A DNA stretch of 64,000 bases from Leucoraja erinacea (Eukaryota), in assembly GCF_028641065.1 (NCBI RefSeq), contig NC_073405.1:17422001-17486000 (forward strand), given 5' to 3'. Below, one piece after another: positions 5,516 to 52,643 of this stretch. Position 1 is the stretch's first letter. Every line of letters begins with the position of its first letter. The position numbers and the translations under genes were made by a program. The notes below the pieces were generated by a model that was not told the DNA's origin, searched no databases, and was given only the letters and a program-made list of their open reading frames with translations.

Positions 5516-5838
5516 TTAACAGCTGGATTGTGTGATTGTGGCGGATATTTTCGAGGCTGCTCCTTGCTGAACTGTGCAGGAGTACAACTTCCCACTGCTC
5601 CAGTCTGCGCCGAGCACCGCCAGATAGCTGCTGAGACTGAAGGTGTTGTCCGTGTCCCGCCTCACCGCGCTGGTTTGCACCTCACTGCTCGGCGGACTCC
5701 CGTCCACTGTCCAGCTGACGGCGGGGAAGCCCGCGGACAGTTTACTGACCAGGCAAACTAAGGTGCCCGCTCCTTTAGCGGACATCTCCTCGTCTGACGG
5801 CCCCAGCAGTTTCACTGAAGGATCTGGGAGCTGCGAAG
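5516..5838 (-). CDS. IgL constant exon, cluster 1
   Basis: TTGCAG acceptor in phase with J; C1-set motifs (TLVCLV, W, FSLSSYL, YSCTV); terminal Cys then TAA. Confidence 0.95.
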
Positions 5839-7096
5839 CTGCAATGGGAACAATAGAAGACATGTTTCAGGGGACGGAAGAGCTCGGTCATCTCAGCGTT
5901 TGACAGTTGCAGCTTCCTCTAGTGGGGACCCGAGTCTCACTGAGGGACGGAGCGGTGCCCACGGAGGTCGCCCCATGGATGTCCACACTGGGGAACGAGA
6001 AATGTGAGGCCAAGTTCCTGTTTTAGGGCCCTGCTAATAACTCGCTGGTTCACTGCATCAGCCACTCGGTGACCCCTCGCCCTGGGACCAACTAGTGCCG
6101 GTGGGGAATCGACTCCAACTGGTGGGGCGACCCCGGGTCACTTCAATGTGCCCACTCACGGAGCCACTAGCTACACGTTCCTCCTCTTCCCTTCGCCCCA
6201 CCCCATCCATCACTGATGTCCCCGCTGTGCCCCCCACAGCTGCCCGGAGAATAAACACATCTCAAACTCTGCACCGCCCCAGAGGGCGAGGACAGCTGAG
6301 CTTCACGGAGCTGCGACGGTGCCGAGGGATTCGGGTCCCATTCACTGTGGGGGGGGGGGGGGGGGGGGGGGGCAGGTGCGATTCTCCCCAGACCCGGAGC
6401 TGCGACCTCAGTCGCTGCAGAGACGGCAATCGCTGAGCGGCGGTGAAGGGGAGAGATGGCAGGAGAGAGGAGGCAAGGACTGGGGAACTGGGTGAGGGGC
6501 TTTTATTGGGCAGGAGAGTTCGTCGTCACCGGGAGGATTGGAGTTTCCGTGAAATTCCGGGGGAGATTCCGCTGTGGGATCCTCATGCAATAGTGAAACG
6601 TATAGTTCCACTGCCTCAACAACCCCGGGCTGTCTCCAGTCGCCAATGTCCTCTCCCCACTGTGACACCGGGCTCCACTTTAGGAAGCTGGGGCCCCTCA
6701 CATTCAATTGGATCAAACCGGCACAAAGCGGATGAACTAACGGGAGTAACACCGCGCAAACTCAGAGATGAAGTTAGTCTCCGAAACACAATATTCACAA
6801 GCACATGCAGAGACAGAGCAACAACACCACACAAAGAAGTGATTAACCGAGAGTGTACCTTTGTGAAATATCAAACAAGCTTCACGAAATAGAGAATGTG
6901 GTCATTAAAATACAGTAACAATTCACTGAACACAACTATATTTATTGGAACTGGTGCTGGACACAGAACTTAAATGGATTGAAAAATAAAAATTCTCGAT
7001 AAAATTAGCCAGGTAATAATAAAGGTTAAAGAATTAGTTGCCAACTGACCGTATTCTCGCGGTTAGTAATTGCGGGATGATTTCCCAGACACTTAC

Positions 7097-7134
7097 CTGT
7101 AACAAAGAGCTTGGTCCCTGGGCCGAACATGCCC
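7097..7134 (-). CDS. IgL J segment, cluster 1 (GMFGPGTKLFVT)
   Basis: FGxG motif; 38 nt; phase-1 GTAAGT donor; abuts the heptamer. Confidence 0.95.
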
Positions 7135-7172
7135 CACAGTGTGTGGTTCCGGCTTCAGCCCTGACAGTTATC
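7135..7172 (-). promoter_or_regulatory. J1 RSS (perfect heptamer, degenerate nonamer at 22 bp)
   Basis: Heptamer at 7135-7141; the best nonamer near 23 bp is ACAGTTATC (7164-7172, 5/9 match). Confidence 0.7.
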
Positions 7173-7488
7173 CCGGGCCCTGGAATCAGACAGAAAACAC
7201 GGGCAGACGCTCCAGTTTCCGCATGAAAGTCGACTTCACACATCCCGAGTGTCCCTGCCGGTGTGGGTTGGGGAAGGGATGAACTCACAGCCGCATCGCC
7301 AGGCTTGACATTAAACGGCATCGAATCCCGGCAGTGGGCGGTGGGACTCTGAAACTTCAAAAAAAAAGAAATATTGAAATTGGAAAATACTGTATAAAGG
7401 ACAAAATTAAAGCGACTTTGTGAAGAATGAAAGATTAGAATGTTTTCATTGATTAAAAGATGTAAAGTGCATCATGTTTGTTGCCTCC

Positions 7489-7516
7489 AGTTTTTGTTTT
7501 ACCTTCTCTCACTGTG
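7489..7516 (-). promoter_or_regulatory. V1 recombination signal sequence, 12-bp spacer
   Basis: CACAGTG + 12 nt + ACAAAAACT on the minus strand. Confidence 0.95.
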
Positions 7517-7840
7517 TGTAAGTACTGCTCGCTGGAAACCACTTCATACAGTAATAGACGGCAGCGTCATTCACCTCCGCCTTGCTTATGATCAACTGGT
7601 AAACGGTGGCGGCGCCGTTGGCTTTCGAAGTGAAACGGTCGCTGCTAAACCCAGACCCATAGGTCGGGACGTTGTTTCCGTGATAATACCGGAGGATCCA
7701 TTGAGGAGTTGTTCCCGGTATCTGTTTGTACCAATAAGAGTATCCGTTATCCTTTATTCCGACATTGCAGTCCAGCGTGGCCGTGTCCCCTGGATTCACC
7801 GACACGGTCGCAGGTTGGATTACGGTCTGACTCTCCCCAG
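7517..7840 (-). CDS. IgL sigma-type V segment, cluster 1 (germline, unjoined)
   Basis: TTTACAG acceptor; Ig V motifs C, WYKQ and DAAVYYC; short CDR1 and long CDR2 with the YGSGFSSDRF motif typical of sigma (teleost L2 / Xenopus sigma) V domains; ends at an RSS heptamer. Confidence 0.93.
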
Positions 7841-7936
7841 CTGTAAAGTAGAAGGAATTCAATTTTAACTATTGACTCTTTAATGTGACCCCCCAGAGCC
7901 CACATCACACCCGCTGACTTGCAGCCCTGTACTTAC

Positions 7937-7982
7937 AGCTCAGCCACAGTGCCAGGGACCAGATAAAGCACAGCGTTTGCAT
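7937..7982 (-). CDS. IgL cluster 1 leader exon (MQTLCFIWSLALWLS)
   Basis: ATG at 7982; hydrophobic 15-codon exon of 46 nt, phase 1; GTAAGT donor; a 96-bp intron leads to the V exon. Confidence 0.93.
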
Positions 7983-8063
7983 CGTTACTGCCCTCGGTTT
8001 CCTGCCTCACTCCAGCCGCTGTATCTGCGACAAGACTGTGGACGCCGCTGCCGATGGAACCCA

Positions 8064-8109
8064 CTTATACCATTCACACAGGAAGCAAATGCGTGCAAAT
8101 CAGGGCGGG
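8064..8109 (-). promoter_or_regulatory. V1 promoter: GC box, octamer variant ATTTGCAC, TATAAG
   Basis: ATTTGCAC at 8093-8100 and TATAAG at 8064-8069, upstream of the leader ATG; same layout in cluster 2. Confidence 0.75.
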
Positions 8110-8619
8110 TCACAGTGAGCGACCGGAGCGCGGATCTGAAACCCTCCCATTCGCCATCAGACACGGTCGGGTTGAGGCGGTGACACTGTCAGCCACTGGC
8201 TGGTCTGTTAAACACAACCCGTGAATGAGCAGATCGTCTGTTGTCTGATATTCCCCAGGTTCTCCCTCCATCCCCCTGAGTCAGTGGTTGCAACAATCCA
8301 TTCCTCAGTCCAGCGATGCCTCTCACACCTGCAGTCACAACAGGGTGGGACAGTGCAGTCTTCCTGTCCCACATCAATAATCCAGACACAAGAGACTGTA
8401 GATGCTGGATTCTTGAGCAAAAATGAAACTCTCGCTAGATCTCAGCGGGTCCGACAGCGTCTATAGAGGGAAAACCCTCTTGACCAGAAACGTTGTCTGT
8501 CTTTGTCTATTCGCTCCACAGTCGCTGAATTCCTTCAGGAGTCCATTTTGTTACTCAATAATTTAGACATCGAGTTAAACCCATCCTTACTGATGATGTA
8601 GTGTATTCAATTCAATTTG

Positions 8620-10040
8620 AGGACACGACATTGGGTTGGTGGTAGGACGCAGGGGATGGTTTTGAAGGATTGTTTCCCAAATGGGAGTTCTGTGACTAGT
8701 GGTGTGGCACAGGGCTGGTACTGCTCCACTGCAGCTTGCCACATTAATTCATGATGATGGGGATTCTCCCTCCATTTCCCTGATTCAGTTGTTCCCGCAC
8801 CTCATCTCTCAGTCCAGAGATGCCCCTTACACCTCCAGTCACAACAGTGTGCGACAGAGCAGGCTTCAGATACAATAGATTGAAGATACTGCCACATTAA
8901 ATCATGATGGGGAGGAAAATAGGTGTCATTATTACTACGTTTCTGGAAGGCATCAAAATTGGTGGGAGAGTAGGCAGTGAGGAATGCTGTCTAACCTTAC
9001 AACAGGATATTGATCAACTGGGAACGTGGCAATGTAATGGTAAATGGATTTTACTCATACAAGTGCAAAGTGATTCAGTTTGAAGCATCAAGCAGGCAAG
9101 GACATAATAATGAATGGCAGGACCCTGGGTAGTATTGCTGAAAATAAAACATTGGGGTAGATGTATATAGTTCCCCGAAGGTACCAACACGGGTTTACAA
9201 GATGGTGATGAAGGCTTGTGGCTTGCTGTTGCTTAAAAGATTTGGAAGGTTATGTCATGGTTGTACAAAATATTAGTTAGACTGCACGTGGAGTATTGCT
9301 GAGGCTCTATGAAGCACTGGTCATGTTGCATTTGGAGTACTGTGAGCAGATTTGGACCCCATATCTGAGCAAGGATGTGCTGGCAATGGAGAGAGTCCAG
9401 AGGAGGTTTACAAGAATGATTCCAGGATTGAGTGGGTTAGGATATGATGAAGTTTAGAGGTTTGAGGGCGGACCTCATTGAAACTTACAGAATAATGAAA
9501 GGCATAGAAAGAGTGGCTGTGGAAGATGTTTCCACTGGTGGGAGAGTCTAGGACCAGAGGTCGTAGCTTCAGAATTAAAAGGCGCTCTTTTAAAAAGGAG
9601 TTGAGGAGGAACTTCTTTAGTCAGAGGGTAGTTAATCTATGGAACTTACTGCCATAGAGGGCTGTGGGAGGCAAGTTAGAGGATATTTTTAAAGCAGAGA
9701 TAGACAAGTTCTTGATTAGAACAGGTATCAAGGGTTATGGGGACAAGGCAGGAAAATGGAATTAGGTGCCAGAGATCAGCCATGATTGAATGGTGGAGTA
9801 GACTCAATGGGCCAAATGGCCTAATTTTACTATAACTTGTGAACTTGTATGCAGTTCCCATCGCTGTGCTGTGGGAAGGATGGGATTAAACCAGAGAGGA
9901 TCCAAAGAAGATCCACAAAGATGTAACTTGGATTGGAGGGCTTGAGTTAAGAGGAAGATGTGGATAAGATGAGACTTTTTCCCATAAATGAAATAAACTC
10001 AGGGGTGACCTGATAGAGGTTTATAGCATTATTTAAGATA
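8620..10040 (+). mobile_element. Nested CR1 LINE fragments
   Basis: Old reverse-transcriptase-region fragment with a younger 3' end at about 9290-9850. Confidence 0.75.
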
Positions 10041-15812: not shown

Positions 15813-16329
15813 ACTTGGTGGTGAGTGCGTGGAACATGCTGCCTGGAATGGTGGTGGAGGCAAATATGATAGTGGCATTTAAGATAATTTTAGATAGGCA
15901 CTTTCTGGAAGTGGAGAGATATGGATCATGTGCAGGCAGGTGACAGTTGGTGTTTGCAGCATGTTGGGTACAGACATGATTGGCTGAAGGGCCTCTTCTT
16001 GTGCTGTATGTTCTATGATCTGTTCTATGATCTGTGTTCTAATGTTCTATGATCTGTGTTCTATGTTCTACAGTGCTGATAGACTAATGCTGAATATTGT
16101 ATTCCAATTTGCTATTAATAAAAAGCAGAATATTAAGACCATATATGCTACTCAAAGTTAATGTGGGTCTGCTAGAAATCAGGATATTAATCATGAATTG
16201 AACTAATTTTAATGCAGAAATTAGATTGGAGGAGGCAAGGTTGCAGAGAGTTGGTACTGTACCAATCAGTTTCCAGTATTTCAAATTGGCTTCATCAAGC
16301 TTGAGTAGGTTATGAATGGAGGAGGATTG

Positions 16330-19000
16330 TCATCTAATCCAGTGGGAAATAACTCCTTGGGATATTGGACAATATTCCCTTGTGTTAATACGAGGGAAAC
16401 TAACATTTCTCATGCTCCATCATTGTAAATAATAAATGCTACTTCGTTCAGAGAAAGAAGTGTTTAAATCAGCTGCCGCCTGAGTGTGAAAATAACAAAC
16501 ATCTGTGGGCCGAGCAGGAAACGAGCTGTTATTTTAAGGAGAGGGGCTGTCCAGAACTGAAACAAGACGTTTAGATCTGCCTTTTATACCACTTTATCCA
16601 AATATCACAGTCTCTGTTCCACCCGCAACGTTGCTTTGAGCATCTATCAGGTACTTGACTATTTAAAGGGCCATTACCTCTGGTACTCTCTTTGAGCTAT
16701 AACAGTCAGCACAAGAATTGCTTTAGATATTTTGCCATATTGGTTGCCTGATTAATTTCAACCCACTGACTTTTCAGTGAATTCTGGGGGGAGGAAAATG
16801 TAATTATTGCTGATGGCTTAGAGGGCTGAAAGTTAATTCATCCCCATTACATAGTCAACACCTGGTTTATTTTCCACTGTATTCAAAGGAATTGAGAAGT
16901 GATAGGAAAGAACTGCAGATGCTGGTTTAAATCTGGAGAGAAAGAATGGGAGAAAGGTCTCGACTCAAAATGTCACCCATTCTTTCTCTCCAGAGATGCT
17001 GCCTGGCCCACTGAGTTACTCCAGCATTTTGTGTCTACCTTCAAATTGAGAAATGAAGTGAGTTGTGCAACGGGGCTTGAATTCAATCCACATATTTAAT
17101 CCACACAAAGTTAAACTGCCCTTGTGTGTCCTTCCATTCTCATGACCTTCCATTTATTATTATTTTTTGGTCAAATCTACCCTCCAAGTCTAAAATCTGT
17201 GAATCAGCCTGGTCTGTGCATCAGCAACATCAGTCTCACTGATCCAGTGACCACTCCTCCCTTGGGTCACCGCACAGTGAGTGTGGACATGCAAGTTCAA
17301 GTGAAACCAATTGGCCCAGAGCTGCCCTCCTCTCACACCCACCGCTCAGGAACACTGATGGTGAGCAGGTGGACAAATCCTAAGTGCGTCTGATCTGTAA
17401 TCCTGGTCATCTCAAGGAAGATCTCATGGCATTAGACCGTGCACCTTCCTATTCAGCACACGCTCCCACCACAGTCAAAGCTATTTCACGCAGAGATAGT
17501 CAATTGCTCATGTCTGTATCTACATATAATGTTTATAAAGACACACAAGAAAAATGTCTCCCTAGGAATAAAGACAAAAGCTAAAATAAAGACAAAAGGC
17601 CACATCCCGTACCTTAAATTATAGCATTGGAACAGTGTATAATCTGTGCCAGGATAAGCAGCATAACAGGCACTTGAGAGCTGTGGAGCTGAAGGATAGG
17701 AGGGTGCCCATGAGACCACAAAACAGTCAAGTCTAAACCTTACGTTAATGTTATCTAACGTATGACCAAAACTAAAAGGCAACACAATTCAGTGATGTAC
17801 TCAAAATTGGAGCACTCTGCCTTGTTATCTGCTGGAGAGTGAAATGGCTCAAGCACAGGTCTACAGATTTGACATCCATGACATATTCAGCAATCGCTTC
17901 ACTTTTCATGGTTCTTCACGCTCAACAACAGCAACCTGCATTAAAAAATACCATTACAAAATTGGAAAAACGACAAGACCATTTTCCGGATTTTGACCCA
18001 GAGATTAACAATCACACCACGTGTTTGAAATTAAAGTAAATCACTTTGTGTTCAATGTGGGGCAGGTTCATAAAGCCATGTGGTATCCCAAGGGGTGAGT
18101 GTGTGGGCTGGAGAGGGTAAAAGTGAAGAGCTGCTGGCAGTAAGGGAAAAGTCATGTTGGAGTCAAAGCACAAACCTGGGGTAACGTTATAACTGGGGTA
18201 AGAGGGTCACATGAAGCAAGAGGCAAACAAACTCTCAAAGGGAAAGGGGTCACAGGCAAAATGATACTATCCCAGTGCAAAAAGGACTGAGACCTTGCGA
18301 AATATAACAATGTTTAATTTTGCTGTTCTCTGCTCAGGGAAAGATGAGGTAAATGTTATTTTGTCCCACAGAATTAGATGTGATTGATGGAGAAATGTTG
18401 TGCAATTTAATCAGAAACGGAATTACAAGACTCCTTACACTTGAGAATGATGTGAATGAATGATCTGTGAATTTGAAGTATTGCAGAAATTCGGGGATAT
18501 TTGAAGTAAATTTAATTAATTCTCTCGATGTCCTGCAACACACATTGCCCCCGATTGCTGGGTGTGAGAGGAGGGCAGCACAATGCCAGTAGTTTCACTT
18601 GAACTTGTCTCTCCACACTCAATGTCCGGCTTCTCAGTATTGCAGAAATTTGGGAATATTTAAAGTCAATTTAATTTACACAAAGAGAATAAAATGTAGG
18701 AGAGAGAAAGAGAGAGAGGGGGAAAGCTAAAGGGTTGTTGATTTTAACTGTTCTGCACTGGGAGGAAGTTGCGGTATTTGTTATGTCCGCGGTTGGATGT
18801 GACTGAGAGAAAGATCTTGTGCAATTTAATCATAAATTTAAGTTGCAGGATCTCTTACATTTTAGGAGGCACTGTCACTGTGAAAATGCATTGTGTGAGG
18901 AAGAGAGCTGTCTCAGCTTCCACCCACTGATACCCTCTTCCTCTAGTCTTTGGAATGAGTGTTAAAGATGTATTTTACTGGAGATCTTTAAAATATTTTA
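16330..19000. repeat. Left inner arm of an old inverted duplication
   Basis: Reverse-complement matches: 16330-16560 to 23163-23400, 17190-17490 to 21830-22145, 18640-19000 to 21090-21530. Confidence 0.85.
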
Positions 19001-23070: not shown

Positions 23071-23686
23071 CAATACTAATACTCAAAGTAACATCTATGA
23101 TAGAAGAGAAACTAAGATATTTGGATAATATGGTAAAAAAGGCACAATCTAAACATCTTGCCTCAGTTCTGGGCAGCCCCGCTCCTTAAAATAACAGCTC
23201 GTTTCCTGCTGGGGCCGCAGATGTTTGTTATTTTCACACCCAGGGTGCAGCTGATATCAACTGTACCAGACCTCTTTCTTTAAACGACAAGCACATTTTC
23301 ATTAAAAAAGTTGGAGCATTGAAAAGAATGCATCTTCCACATTTACACTGCTCAATAATGCTGGAATATCCCATGGAGTTCTCTCCCACTGGATCAAGTC
23401 ACAGACCTCACTCATCACAATATAAACCATGTGCTGAAGCTGATCTGAAATAATGTAAACTGATTGGTGTAGTACTAACTCTCTGCAGCCGTGGCTCAAT
23501 GAATACAATTTCTCTATTAAAATTAACACAGTTGACTTCAATATCCTGATTTTATTTGAATTAGATTTATCACACTGATCAATTGAATGCATGAGTAGAA
23601 TATATGACCAACAAGGCACTACTGTTCATTGATAGCATATTAAAATTCAACTGACAACGGCATGAGTCCATCAGCTCTATTTATAA

Positions 23687-30858: not shown

Positions 30859-30907
30859 CCCGCCCTGATTTGCACGGATTTCCGTCCTGTGGCAATGGCT
30901 CTATAAG
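30859..30907 (+). promoter_or_regulatory. V2 promoter: GC box, octamer variant ATTTGCAC, TATAAG
   Basis: ATTTGCAC at 30868-30875, TATAAG at 30902-30907, ATG at 30986. Confidence 0.75.
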
Positions 30908-30985
30908 TGGGTTCCATCGGCAGCGGCGTCCACAGTCTCACAAATACAGCGGCTGGAGTGAGGCAGGAAACTGAGAGCAGCAACC

Positions 30986-31031
30986 ATGAAAACGCTGTGC
31001 TTTTTGTCGTCTCTGGTACTGTGGCTGGGCT
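30986..31031 (+). CDS. IgL cluster 2 leader exon (MKTLCFLSSLVLWLG)
   Basis: Kozak context ACCATG; 46 nt, phase 1; GTAAGT donor; 89-bp intron. Confidence 0.93.
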
Positions 31032-31120
31032 GTAAGTACAGGTGGCAAATGTGCGGGCAGTGATGTGGGCTCTTGGGGGTTACATTAAATAGTTAAAATT
31101 GAATTCCTTCTACTTTACAG

Positions 31121-31444
31121 CCGGAGAGTGTCAGACTCTGACTCAACCTGCGACCGTGTCGGTGAATCCAGGGGTCACGGCCACGCTGGAATGCAACATC
31201 GGGACAGATGATAACCAATATGTTTATTGGTACAAGCAGACGTTGGGAACAACTCCTCAATGGGTTCTCCGGTATCATCAGTCAGAGGCCGCCCCGACCT
31301 ATGGGTCTGGGTTCAGCAGCGACCGTTTCACATCGAAAGCCAACGGCGCCGGCACCGTTTACCAGTTGATCATAAGCAAGGCGGAGGTGAATGACGCTGC
31401 CGTCTATTACTGTATGAAGTGGGTTTCAGCGAGCAGTATTTACG
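31121..31444 (+). CDS. IgL sigma-type V segment, cluster 2 (germline, unjoined)
   Basis: Open 324-nt exon, paralog of V1, with intact C/W/YYC motifs. Confidence 0.93.
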
Positions 31445-31472
31445 CACAGTGAGAAAGGGTCGAACAAAAACT
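31445..31472 (+). promoter_or_regulatory. V2 RSS, 12-bp spacer
   Basis: CACAGTG-AGAAAGGGTCGA-ACAAAAACT. Confidence 0.95.
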
Positions 31473-31787
31473 GGAGGCAACAAATATGATGCACTTTACA
31501 TCTTTGAAACGATGAAAACATTCTAATCTTTCATTCTTCACAAAGTCGCTTTAATTTTATCCTTTATACAGTATTTCCCAATTTTAATATATCATTTTTT
31601 TTGAAGAATCGTTGTCCCACCGCCTACTGCCGGGATTCGATGCCGTTTAATGTCAAGCCTGGCGATGCGGCTGTGAGTTCATCCCTTCCCCACCCACACC
31701 GGCAGGGACACTCGGGATGTGTGAAGTCGACTTTCATGCAGAAACTGGAGCGTCTGCCCGTGTTTTCTGTCTGATTCCAGGGCCCGG

Positions 31788-31825
31788 GATAACTGTCAGG
31801 GCTGAAGCCGGAACCACACACTGTG
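31788..31825 (+). promoter_or_regulatory. J2 RSS (perfect heptamer, degenerate nonamer)
   Basis: GATAACTGT + 22 nt + CACTGTG; identical to J1. Confidence 0.7.
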
Positions 31826-31863
31826 GGGGGTGTTCGGCCCAGGGACCAAGCTCTTTGTTACAG
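31826..31863 (+). CDS. IgL J segment, cluster 2 (GVFGPGTKLFVT)
   Basis: FGxG motif and GTAAGT donor. Confidence 0.95.
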
Positions 31864-31929
31864 GTAAGTGTCTGGGAAATCATCCCGCAATTACTAACCG
31901 CGAGAATACGGTCAGTTGGCAGCTAATAT

Positions 31930-32295
31930 TTCAACCTTTATTATTATCTGGCTAATTTTATCGAGAATTTTTATTTTGCAATCCATTTGAGTTCAGTGTC
32001 CAGCACCAGTTCCAATAAATATAGTTGTGTTCAGTGAATTGTTACTGTATTTTAATGACCACATTCTCTACTTCGTGAAGCGTGTTTGTTATTTCAAAAA
32101 GGTGCACTTTAACCTTTATTATTTCCTGGCTAATTTCACAGAGAGGATGTTAATTTTTCAATTAATGTGAGTTCTGTGCCCAGCGCCAATTCAACTAAAT
32201 GTTGTTGTGTTTAGATATTTTTGTCACTGTCTTTGATTGACCACACTTCTCTTTTTCGTGAAGTTTGTTTGATTCAAAAAGGTGCACTCTCCGTG
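31930..32295. repeat. ~180-bp diverged tandem duplication in the cluster 2 J-C intron
   Basis: AACCTTTATTATT...AAAAGGTGCACT occurs twice here and once in cluster 1. Confidence 0.85.
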
Positions 32296-32299
32296 AATC

Positions 32300-32582
32300 G
32301 GTTTTGAACCAAAAAATATTTAATCAATTATTTACAATAATATTTACAGTACGAAATCAATCAAAACAAAATCCACCGCCATAATTCAAGGCAAACAAAT
32401 ATACTAAATACTATACTATACAACTTTAGTACAATCCTTATTGAGAATGACTTCCACCCCACGCAGAGCCCAACATTCCCGGAAATCCCCCAGGGCGCCC
32501 GTGGACAGCGCGTAATCCCTCTCAAGTATCACCCGGGTGCGGCGGTAACCCCAGAAAAGGGGCAGGCTGCCGGCTCGGGCAT
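32300..32582 (-). mobile_element. 5'-truncated Tx1-like non-LTR retrotransposon 3' end
   Basis: LPLFWGY..RVILERDYALSTGALGDFRECW resembles Tx1 ORF2 C-termini, followed by a T-rich UTR; absent from the cluster 1 intron. Confidence 0.7.
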
Positions 32583-33398
32583 TAATCATTCTCTTTGTGG
32601 TGCAGTTGCTCTGTCTCTGCATGTGCTTGTGAAAATTGTCTGCCTGAGACTAACTTCATCTCTGAGTTTGCGCGGTGTTACTCCCGTTAGTTTATCCGCT
32701 TTGTGCCGGTTTGATCCAAGTGAACTTGAGGGGTCCCAGCTGCCTAAAGTGGAGCCCGGTGTCACAGTGGGGAGAGGACATTGGCGACTGGAGACAGCCC
32801 GGGGTAGTTGAGGCAGTGGAACTATACGTTTCACTATTGCATGAGGATCCCACAGCGGAATCTCCCCCGGAATTTCACGGAACCTCTAATCCTCCCGGTG
32901 ACGACGGAACTCTCCCGCAGACACCCGCCCAATAAAGGCACCTCTCCGTTCCCCAGTCCAACCCAGCGGCATGAACTAGGGCAAAGTCTCCGCGCATCCC
33001 ACCTCTCCGCATCTCCTCCATCAAAAGTCGGATAATCAGCTCCACAGTTCGCAACGATATATCCCTCCCGGGATCTCACCGTCCCTCGCCAACAAACAGA
33101 GCCACCCTGTGTGCTGGTCTTTTCTTGCTTCCAGTTCATTCCCCGATACATTCAGCCTAAAGAAGGGCCCCGACCTGAAACCTCCTGTTCTAGCATTTTG
33201 TGTCCATCTTTCCTAAAACAGGAACTTGGCCTCACATCTCTAGTTCCCCGGAGTTGATCCATGCGACGACCTCCATGGGCACCGCTCCGTCCCTCAGTGA
33301 GACTCGGGTCCCCACTAGAGGAAGCTGCAACTGTCAAACGCTGAGATGACCGAGCTCTTCCGTCACCTGAAACATGTCTTCTCTTGTTCCAATTGCAG

Positions 33399-33721
33399 CT
33401 TCGCAGCTCCCAGACCCTTCAGTGAAACTGCTGGGGCCGTCAGACGAGGAGATGTCCGCTAAAGGAGCGGGCACCTTAGTTTGCCTGGTCAGTAAACTGT
33501 CCGCGGGCTTCCCCGCCGTCAGCTGGACAGTGGACGGGAGTCCGCCGAGCAGTGAGGTGCAAACCAGCGCGGTGAGGCGGGACACGGACAACACCTTCAG
33601 TCTCAGCAGCTACCTGGCGGTGCTCGGCGCAGACTGGAGCAGTGGGAAGTTGTACTCCTGCACAGTTCAGCAAGGAACAGCCTCGAAAATATCCGCCACA
33701 ATCACACAATCCAGCTGTTAA
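33399..33721 (+). CDS. IgL constant exon, cluster 2
   Basis: 323-nt exon with one amino-acid difference from C1 (QQGTAS vs QQGAAS). Confidence 0.95.

Positions 33722-44321: not shown

Positions 44322-52643
<8,322 letters not shown>

What the first reader, a model, noticed from the sequence alone, without database searches (positions are those of the whole stretch)
16469..16560. Conserved 92-bp motif-dense element present in both decayed inner arms: candidate light-chain enhancer
Seen: 16469-16560 matches the reverse complement of 23163-23254 with no gaps and 8 mismatches by eye, while the flanks are far more diverged. It holds two E-boxes (CAGCTG, CATCTG), an ETS core (CAGGAAA), a forkhead-like AACAAACA and a perfect internal inverted pair AAAATAACA...TGTTATTTT (MEF2-like). 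Each copy is about 8 kb upstream of a V promoter. Established: E2A, ETS, FOXO and MEF2 factors act at Ig enhancers. Inference: a purifying-selected upstream enhancer between the divergent clusters.
Basis: partly seen in the sequence, partly recalled or inferred. Interest (0 to 1): 0.7.

Follow-up and report, generated by a model that had tools for sequence, protein, structure and literature searches.

The report
Candidate skate antibody light-chain enhancer
A short non-coding stretch lies about 8 kb in front of each of two sigma antibody light-chain genes of a skate, is better preserved than its surroundings both between the two copies and in related species, and likely works as an enhancer that opens these genes in B cells, although no activity has been measured.

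Summary
16469-16560 matches the reverse complement of 23163-23254 at 84 of 92 bases without gaps. The rest of the aligned inner arms is 70% identical, and such a peak arose in 3 of 5000 simulations. A genome search returned only these two copies. They lie 8.4 and 7.6 kb upstream of the promoters of two head-to-head, unjoined sigma light-chain V-J-C clusters. Contigs of related organisms carry both copies. Only 1 of 13 cross-species changes falls in two motif-bearing cores of 22 and 29 bp (P 0.0005; P 0.18 without CpG columns), and conservation extends to about 16620. The inverted AAAATAACA pair fits forkhead sites better than MEF2. There is no Rfam family, stable fold, reading frame or repeat family, and no homologue in 400 kb of other Ig loci. 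Best reading: a likely sigma-specific enhancer using forkhead, E-protein and ETS factors (0.5). Rivals: a constrained element with another target, or an old gene-conversion patch. Nothing here tests activity, cell type or conservation in sharks.

The parts
16469..16560 (+). Conserved non-coding element, copy 1; its CAGCTG end faces V1
16484..16505 (+). Core A: 22 bp identical in both copies; forkhead-type AAAATAACA overlapping ACAAACA and the E-box CATCTG
   Evidence: one cross-species change, at its edge (16484, copy 2 of run X18)
16513..16541 (+). Core B: 29 bp identical in both copies; ETS core GGAA, an unchanged CpG, second forkhead-type site on the minus strand with a one-mismatch MEF2-like overlap
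   Evidence: no listed change in the four runs
16470..16475 (+). E-box CAGCTG
   Evidence: centre changed but still CANNTG in copy 2 of run X3
16543..16552 (+). One-mismatch NF-kB-like 10-mer; weak, such sites occur 0.19 times per 92 bp of background
16561..16620 (+).
   Evidence: profile; loose ends equal to 16577-16606 in 4 of 4 runs
23163..23254 (-). Conserved non-coding element, copy 2; its CAGCTG end faces V2
23103..23162 (-). 3' extension of copy 2 (approximate), followed by a dispersed-repeat insertion near 23079
5519..8102 (-). Sigma cluster 1: promoter decamer 8102, V frame 7868-7512, 12-bp RSS 7516, J heptamer 7141, C frame 5866-5519
30866..33718 (+). Sigma cluster 2: decamer 30866, ATG 30986, V frame 31093-31449, 12-bp RSS 31445, J heptamer 31819, C to 33718

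Best explanation
The element is a duplicated, constrained non-coding block of about 150 bp that lies 8 kb upstream of each of two sigma light-chain clusters, and it likely acts as their B-lineage enhancer. Shown: two copies, same position and orientation relative to each V, non-coding, two cores nearly free of change across paralogs and related organisms. Inferred: forkhead factors (FOXO1 or FOXP1 would be the lymphoid candidates) bind the two inward-facing AATAACA sites and the overlapping ACAAACA; E2A-type proteins bind the two E-boxes; an ETS factor binds GGAA. The complex would contact the decamer/TATA promoter of the nearer V, start germline transcription and open the small V-J interval to RAG, and later sustain expression. 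The old inverted duplication copied the enhancer with the cluster, and both copies were kept while the spacer decayed to 70% identity.
For: Paralog peak beyond chance. Two copies found, not a repeat. Both copies present in 4 of 4 runs in each lay, and the paralog-specific letters at 16483, 16509 and 16542 are shared across organisms, so there has been no homogenisation there since they split. 1 of 13 cross-species events in the 51 core columns (P 0.0005). After removing own-lineage changes: 1 seen, 6.0 expected (P 0.018). Run X18 has 0 differences in 16513-16606 against 52 in the other 690 bases (P 0.001, post hoc borders). Four of five CpG sites vary; the unchanged one lies beside the ETS core. 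The full motif set (chosen after seeing the element) arose in 0 of 5000 shuffles and 0 of 5733 background windows. Established: E-box, ETS, MEF2 and NF-kB sites are needed in Ig enhancers (PMC3972084, passages); FOXO1 binds the kappa intronic enhancer (PMC13639285, passage); AHAACA is a FOXO1 site (PMC8501956, passage).
Against: No activity, chromatin or expression data. Overall cross-species change in the 92 bp is only modestly reduced: 10-12 events against 18 expected (P 0.03-0.09); 3 of 92 against 49 of 692 for run X18 (P 0.12). The core-versus-spacer contrast largely rests on CpG columns (P 0.18 without them). The runs were found by sharing words with copy 1; the less biased copy-2 cores alone give P 0.20. 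Runs X11, X13 and X18 share most differences and count as about one lineage. Known Ig enhancers lie in the J-C intron or 3' of C, not upstream of V (for lambda; general rule recalled). No homologue or similar motif cluster in 400 kb of lambda, other light-chain and heavy-chain stretches. Forkhead, E-box and ETS sites also mark non-lymphoid enhancers (recalled).
Confidence: 0.5

Rival explanations
1. The block is a constrained regulatory element, but not a B-cell enhancer of sigma: it silences the locus outside B cells, or serves a neighbouring gene or another tissue and was carried along by the duplication.
For: All evidence of constraint fits equally. Other genes are near: RRM-domain exons about 60-75 kb to the left, and CDO_I, TPR, TRIF-NTD and arrestin-domain exons 70-140 kb to the right. 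E-box plus A/T-rich sites also fit muscle enhancers (recalled).
Against: Both copies were kept in the same position relative to each V, where one copy would do for an outside gene. No muscle gene was recognised among the top 140 of 171 candidate exons printed for 264 kb (a crude finder).
Confidence: 0.22
2. The block is an old gene-conversion patch with no function of its own. One arm overwrote the other before these skate lineages split, and A/T-rich, CpG-poor parts have since changed slowly.
For: The gene bodies are 88-92% identical including introns, with 92-bp windows up to 92 of 92; the element's 91% is the same level. The footprint loses significance without CpG columns. An earlier unchecked note reports self-homogenising blocks elsewhere in this genome (e1-9508093).
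Against: Conversion alone predicts flank-level (about 7%) change among orthologs; core B and 16513-16606 show none or nearly none. Paralog differences in other organisms stay near 8-10 of 92 and hit the same columns (my tally). The core CpG is unchanged.
Confidence: 0.2
3. The inverted pair forms a hairpin RNA (pre-miRNA-like or other) or a small coding exon.
For: The invariant cores are the two arms, and the variable 16506-16512 would be the loop. Three paralog changes are spaced by three.
Against: No Rfam match over the element among 7 hits at E up to 5. Folding z-scores from -1.16 to +1.52 in 12 of 12 folds, and -8 to -11 kcal/mol for the 57-nt core. No compensatory change in the 9-bp arms. 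Only 4 of 12 cross-species substitutions share the third-position phase, and run X18 has a 1-bp deletion.
Confidence: 0.05

Closest known systems
Tetrapod Ig lambda 3' enhancer (chicken, mouse, human; PMC3972084 passages and Fig. S4)
   Same: Short block of E-box, A/T-rich and ETS sites at a light-chain locus. Nine letters (AGGAAACGA) equal the chicken PU.1-IRF4 site. A one-mismatch kB-like site lies next to a one-mismatch MEF2-like site.
   Different: Upstream of V rather than downstream of C. The IRF half-site is broken (2 mismatches to the recalled composite). MEF2 and kB sites are imperfect, and the ETS site lies on the other strand and much closer. Forkhead sites dominate.
Mammalian kappa intronic enhancer (PMC13639285, passage)
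   Same: E2A, PU.1 and FOXO1 bind it; it controls stage-specific opening of a rearranging light-chain locus, the role inferred here.
   Different: Intronic, and a single enhancer for a translocon; here one upstream copy per V-J-C minicluster. Sequence homology was not tested.
Duplicated conserved non-coding elements (general class, recalled)
   Same: Short non-coding block kept in both copies after a duplication while the flanks decay.
   Different: A local inverted duplication; conservation shown only among organisms about 7% diverged.

Membership tests
Ig lambda-type 3' enhancer | E-box | tested here: met
   Two in both copies
Ig lambda-type 3' enhancer | Canonical MEF2 site | tested here: not met
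   1 and 2 mismatches to the recalled consensus; one-mismatch sites occur 0.26 times per 92 bp
Ig lambda-type 3' enhancer | NF-kB site | tested here: inconclusive
   One-mismatch 10-mer at 16543, background 0.19 per 92 bp
Ig lambda-type 3' enhancer | PU.1-IRF4 composite | tested here: not met
   ETS half present, IRF half has 2 mismatches
Ig lambda-type 3' enhancer | Position downstream of C | tested here: not met
   Upstream of both V segments
Ig enhancer (functional class) | B-lineage accessibility and enhancer activity | not testable with these tools
   No chromatin or reporter data
Duplicated conserved non-coding element | Low copy, non-repetitive | tested here: met
   2 matches; the tool warns that counts are lower bounds
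Duplicated conserved non-coding element | Slower change than flanks across species | tested here: met
   Cores P 0.0005-0.018, but P 0.18-0.20 in the strictest subsets; moderate support
Duplicated conserved non-coding element | Deep conservation (rays, sharks, chimaera) | not testable with these tools
   No such genomes held; the run search finds only near-identical DNA
Structured RNA or pre-miRNA | Rfam match, stable fold, covariation | tested here: not met
Transposon or MITE | Dispersed copies with terminal inverted repeats | tested here: not met
   2 copies; the inverted pair is internal and not enriched
Ig light chain sigma (the linked genes) | C domain closest to named sigma chains; unjoined V with RSS | tested here: met
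   81% and 82% to horn shark and nurse shark sigma chains, at most 51% to other loci in the genome; 12-bp RSS

The most novel reading that the evidence does not exclude
This is the recombination enhancer of the sigma light chain, the one isotype reported to remain unjoined in skates: a forkhead/E-protein/ETS module placed upstream of V, one per minicluster. It would be a first defined Ig enhancer of a cartilaginous fish and the physical site of the limiting promoter-enhancer complex proposed to explain exclusion among shark Ig miniloci (PMC2435157).
Probability: 0.3. Interest if true: 0.72.

Novelty: new member of a known kind. Interest (0 to 1): 0.45.

Why it matters
Cartilaginous fishes keep Ig genes as many independent miniclusters. 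How one cluster is chosen per B cell has been put down to rare formation of a promoter-enhancer complex (PMC2435157, passages). My paper searches and the passages I read named no such enhancer, but most subscription-journal papers are not held. A 150-bp candidate with two short cores makes the idea testable by ATAC-seq and reporter mutagenesis. If true, it shows that forkhead/E-protein/ETS control of light-chain opening was in place in the oldest lineage with antibodies, in an unusual position upstream of V. If it is only a conversion patch, it is ordinary.

Tried and rejected
Rfam and folding gave nothing. The coding reading was rejected. The inverted pair is not enriched in the genome, 7 against 12. 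The forkhead-E-box word looked enriched (44 against 16 for the reversed control), but Markov models of order 2-5 expect 32-59, and none of the 13 other near-matches that I fetched carries the second half. The core B word has only 4 two-mismatch matches elsewhere, against 4 for the control. Two apparent counterparts 3' of lambda C exons were dispersed repeats. No homologue in the lambda, C1433/C1206 or heavy-chain stretches: 400 kb, only part of those loci. No exact match in viral contigs. No RNA holder listed, which says nothing on expression. No look-alikes in earlier findings. A nurse shark light-chain exclusion paper that I recalled was not held. My check of whether the C1433 genes are germline-joined printed no row, so it is unsettled.

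Full report
Observation. The two stretches match at 84 of 92 bases without gaps. In the 14 syntenic inner-arm alignments that I kept after dropping dispersed repeats (2757 columns), identity outside the element is 69.7%. The best 92-column window scores 84 and the next 74. A Markov null reached 84 in 3 of 5000 runs, and chunk permutations in 1 to 73 of 5000. Identity stays at 24-29 of 30 from 16462 to about 16620, so the block is nearer 150 bp.

Setting. The window holds two head-to-head light-chain clusters, each with an open V, a 12-bp RSS, a J and a C. The C domain is 100% identical to a protein that NCBI labels Leucoraja erinacea, and 81-82% identical to chains named sigma in horn and nurse shark. 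Among 54 genome matches only these two are close; the next is 51%. Reviews report lambda and, in skates, sigma-2 genes as germline-joined (PMC5192425, passages) and list kappa as ND for little skate (PMC5985310, Table 2). I saw joined V-J at 11 lambda sites but did not settle sigma-2. The copies lie 8367 and 7612 bases from the promoter decamers, with the same end facing V. Flanking exons carry RRM, CDO_I, TPR, TRIF-NTD and arrestin domains; the gene names ELAVL1, FEM1A, TICAM1, ARRDC5 and RPL37 are my recall.

Copy number. DNA searches found only the two copies; the tool warns that this does not prove rarity. No Rfam family overlaps the element, 12 of 12 folds are no better than shuffles, and the change pattern is not coding.

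Related organisms. 20 of 24 listed runs hold part of the stretch, under seven organism codes and one uncoded row. I laid 5 of them. On 16070-16930, four runs cover copy 1 at about 93% identity (run X18: 52 differences in 784 bases) and also carry pieces of copy 2; 44 of 84 rows were hidden. On 23125-23335 all 26 rows were shown. I assigned contigs to copies by depth and checked them against the per-piece counts, because differences near piece ends are not listed. Copy 1 differs from the window at 0, 2, 3 and 2-3 places in X3, X11, X18 and X20; one X20 difference is unplaced in 16540-16576. Copy 2 differs at 2, 5, 5 plus a 1-bp deletion, and 3 places. Of 13 placed events one falls in the 51 core columns (P 0.0005); counted as columns not already variable between paralogs, 1 of 6 (P 0.03); without CpG columns, 1 of 4 (P 0.18). 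Removing own-lineage changes gives 1 against 6.0 expected (P 0.018), or 1 against 3.0 for copy 2 alone (P 0.20). The whole element gives 10-12 against 18 (P 0.03-0.09). These rates are rough, X11, X13 and X18 are nearly one lineage, and the runs were found through copy 1. Constraint is likely, not proven.

Motifs. The inverted pair misses the recalled MEF2 consensus by 2 and 1 bases. Both arms contain AHAACA, described as a lower-affinity FOXO1 site, and the second arm shares 12 letters with the FOXD3 NMR site (PMC8501956, passages and Table 1). The ETS site shares 9 letters with the chicken lambda PU.1-IRF4 site but lacks the IRF half (PMC3972084 supplement Fig. S4). A cluster of two E-boxes, two forkhead sites and one ETS site within 70 bp occurs at 4 places in 664 kb, two of them these copies, and at none in 400 kb of other Ig stretches; the motif set was chosen after seeing the element.

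Mechanism. Shown: a two-copy, non-coding, position-fixed block with two near-invariant cores. Inferred: binding by forkhead, E-protein and ETS factors, contact with the V promoter 8 kb away, and opening of the V-J interval in developing B cells. FOXO1, E2A and PU.1 at the kappa intronic enhancer (PMC13639285, passage) and site-dependent activity of Ig enhancers (PMC3972084, passages) make this plausible. I give it 0.5. A constrained element with another target gets 0.22. An old conversion patch gets 0.2, because the gene bodies sit at the same 88-92% identity. An RNA or exon gets 0.05.

Comparison and novelty. It would work like an Ig enhancer but fails membership of the lambda 3' type on position, MEF2 and ETS-IRF. 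It is best filed as a duplicated conserved non-coding element and candidate Ig enhancer. Seven searches aimed at this question listed no paper that I could see describing a cartilaginous-fish Ig enhancer; I read only listings and keyword passages (also PMC4279169, PMC12227049, PMC9936319, PMC4034164), and subscription papers are missing. PMC2435157 (passages) proposes such a complex; the passages I saw name no sequence.

Verdict. A real and probably constrained element; function untested; interest 0.45.

Noticed in passing
window 17193-17340, 22142-21990 and 18531-18636: Second-best inner-arm block (52 of 60). It is confined to this locus, in three copies, and all three share a 14-letter word with an E-box and an IRF-like half-site, and a 17-letter pyrimidine-rich word; possibly a second module.
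   Followed up: partly
L039:5661-5816 (-) and L039:7026-7286 (+), 3-4 kb left of the window: Two decayed sigma V segments, one truncated beside a repeat and one with a stop, head to head about 1.2 kb apart with no copy of the element between them.
   Followed up: partly
window 7141 (-) and 31819 (+): Both J segments have a clear heptamer but no good nonamer at 23 bp, and the flanking 40 bases are identical in the two clusters; this bears on how well they rearrange.
   Followed up: no
window 8102 (-) and 30866 (+): The V promoters carry an octamer variant (TGATTTGCAC) followed by a TATA-like box; no exact octamer lies near either V.
   Followed up: partly
window 8260-8363 and 8764-8867: An 81% direct duplication upstream of promoter 1, also matching 30716-30593.
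   Followed up: no
window 16583-16590 (-): A TATA-like word in the 3' extension of copy 1, kept in four runs but absent from copy 2.
   Followed up: no
window 49713-49793 (-): An exon whose peptide I recall as ribosomal protein L37; no Pfam hit on the 27 residues.
   Followed up: partly
G000:C25:22.30-22.50 Mb and 22.91-22.98 Mb: 19 C exons of another light-chain type, with germline-joined V-J in the part fetched; several units are near-identical over kilobases.
   Followed up: partly
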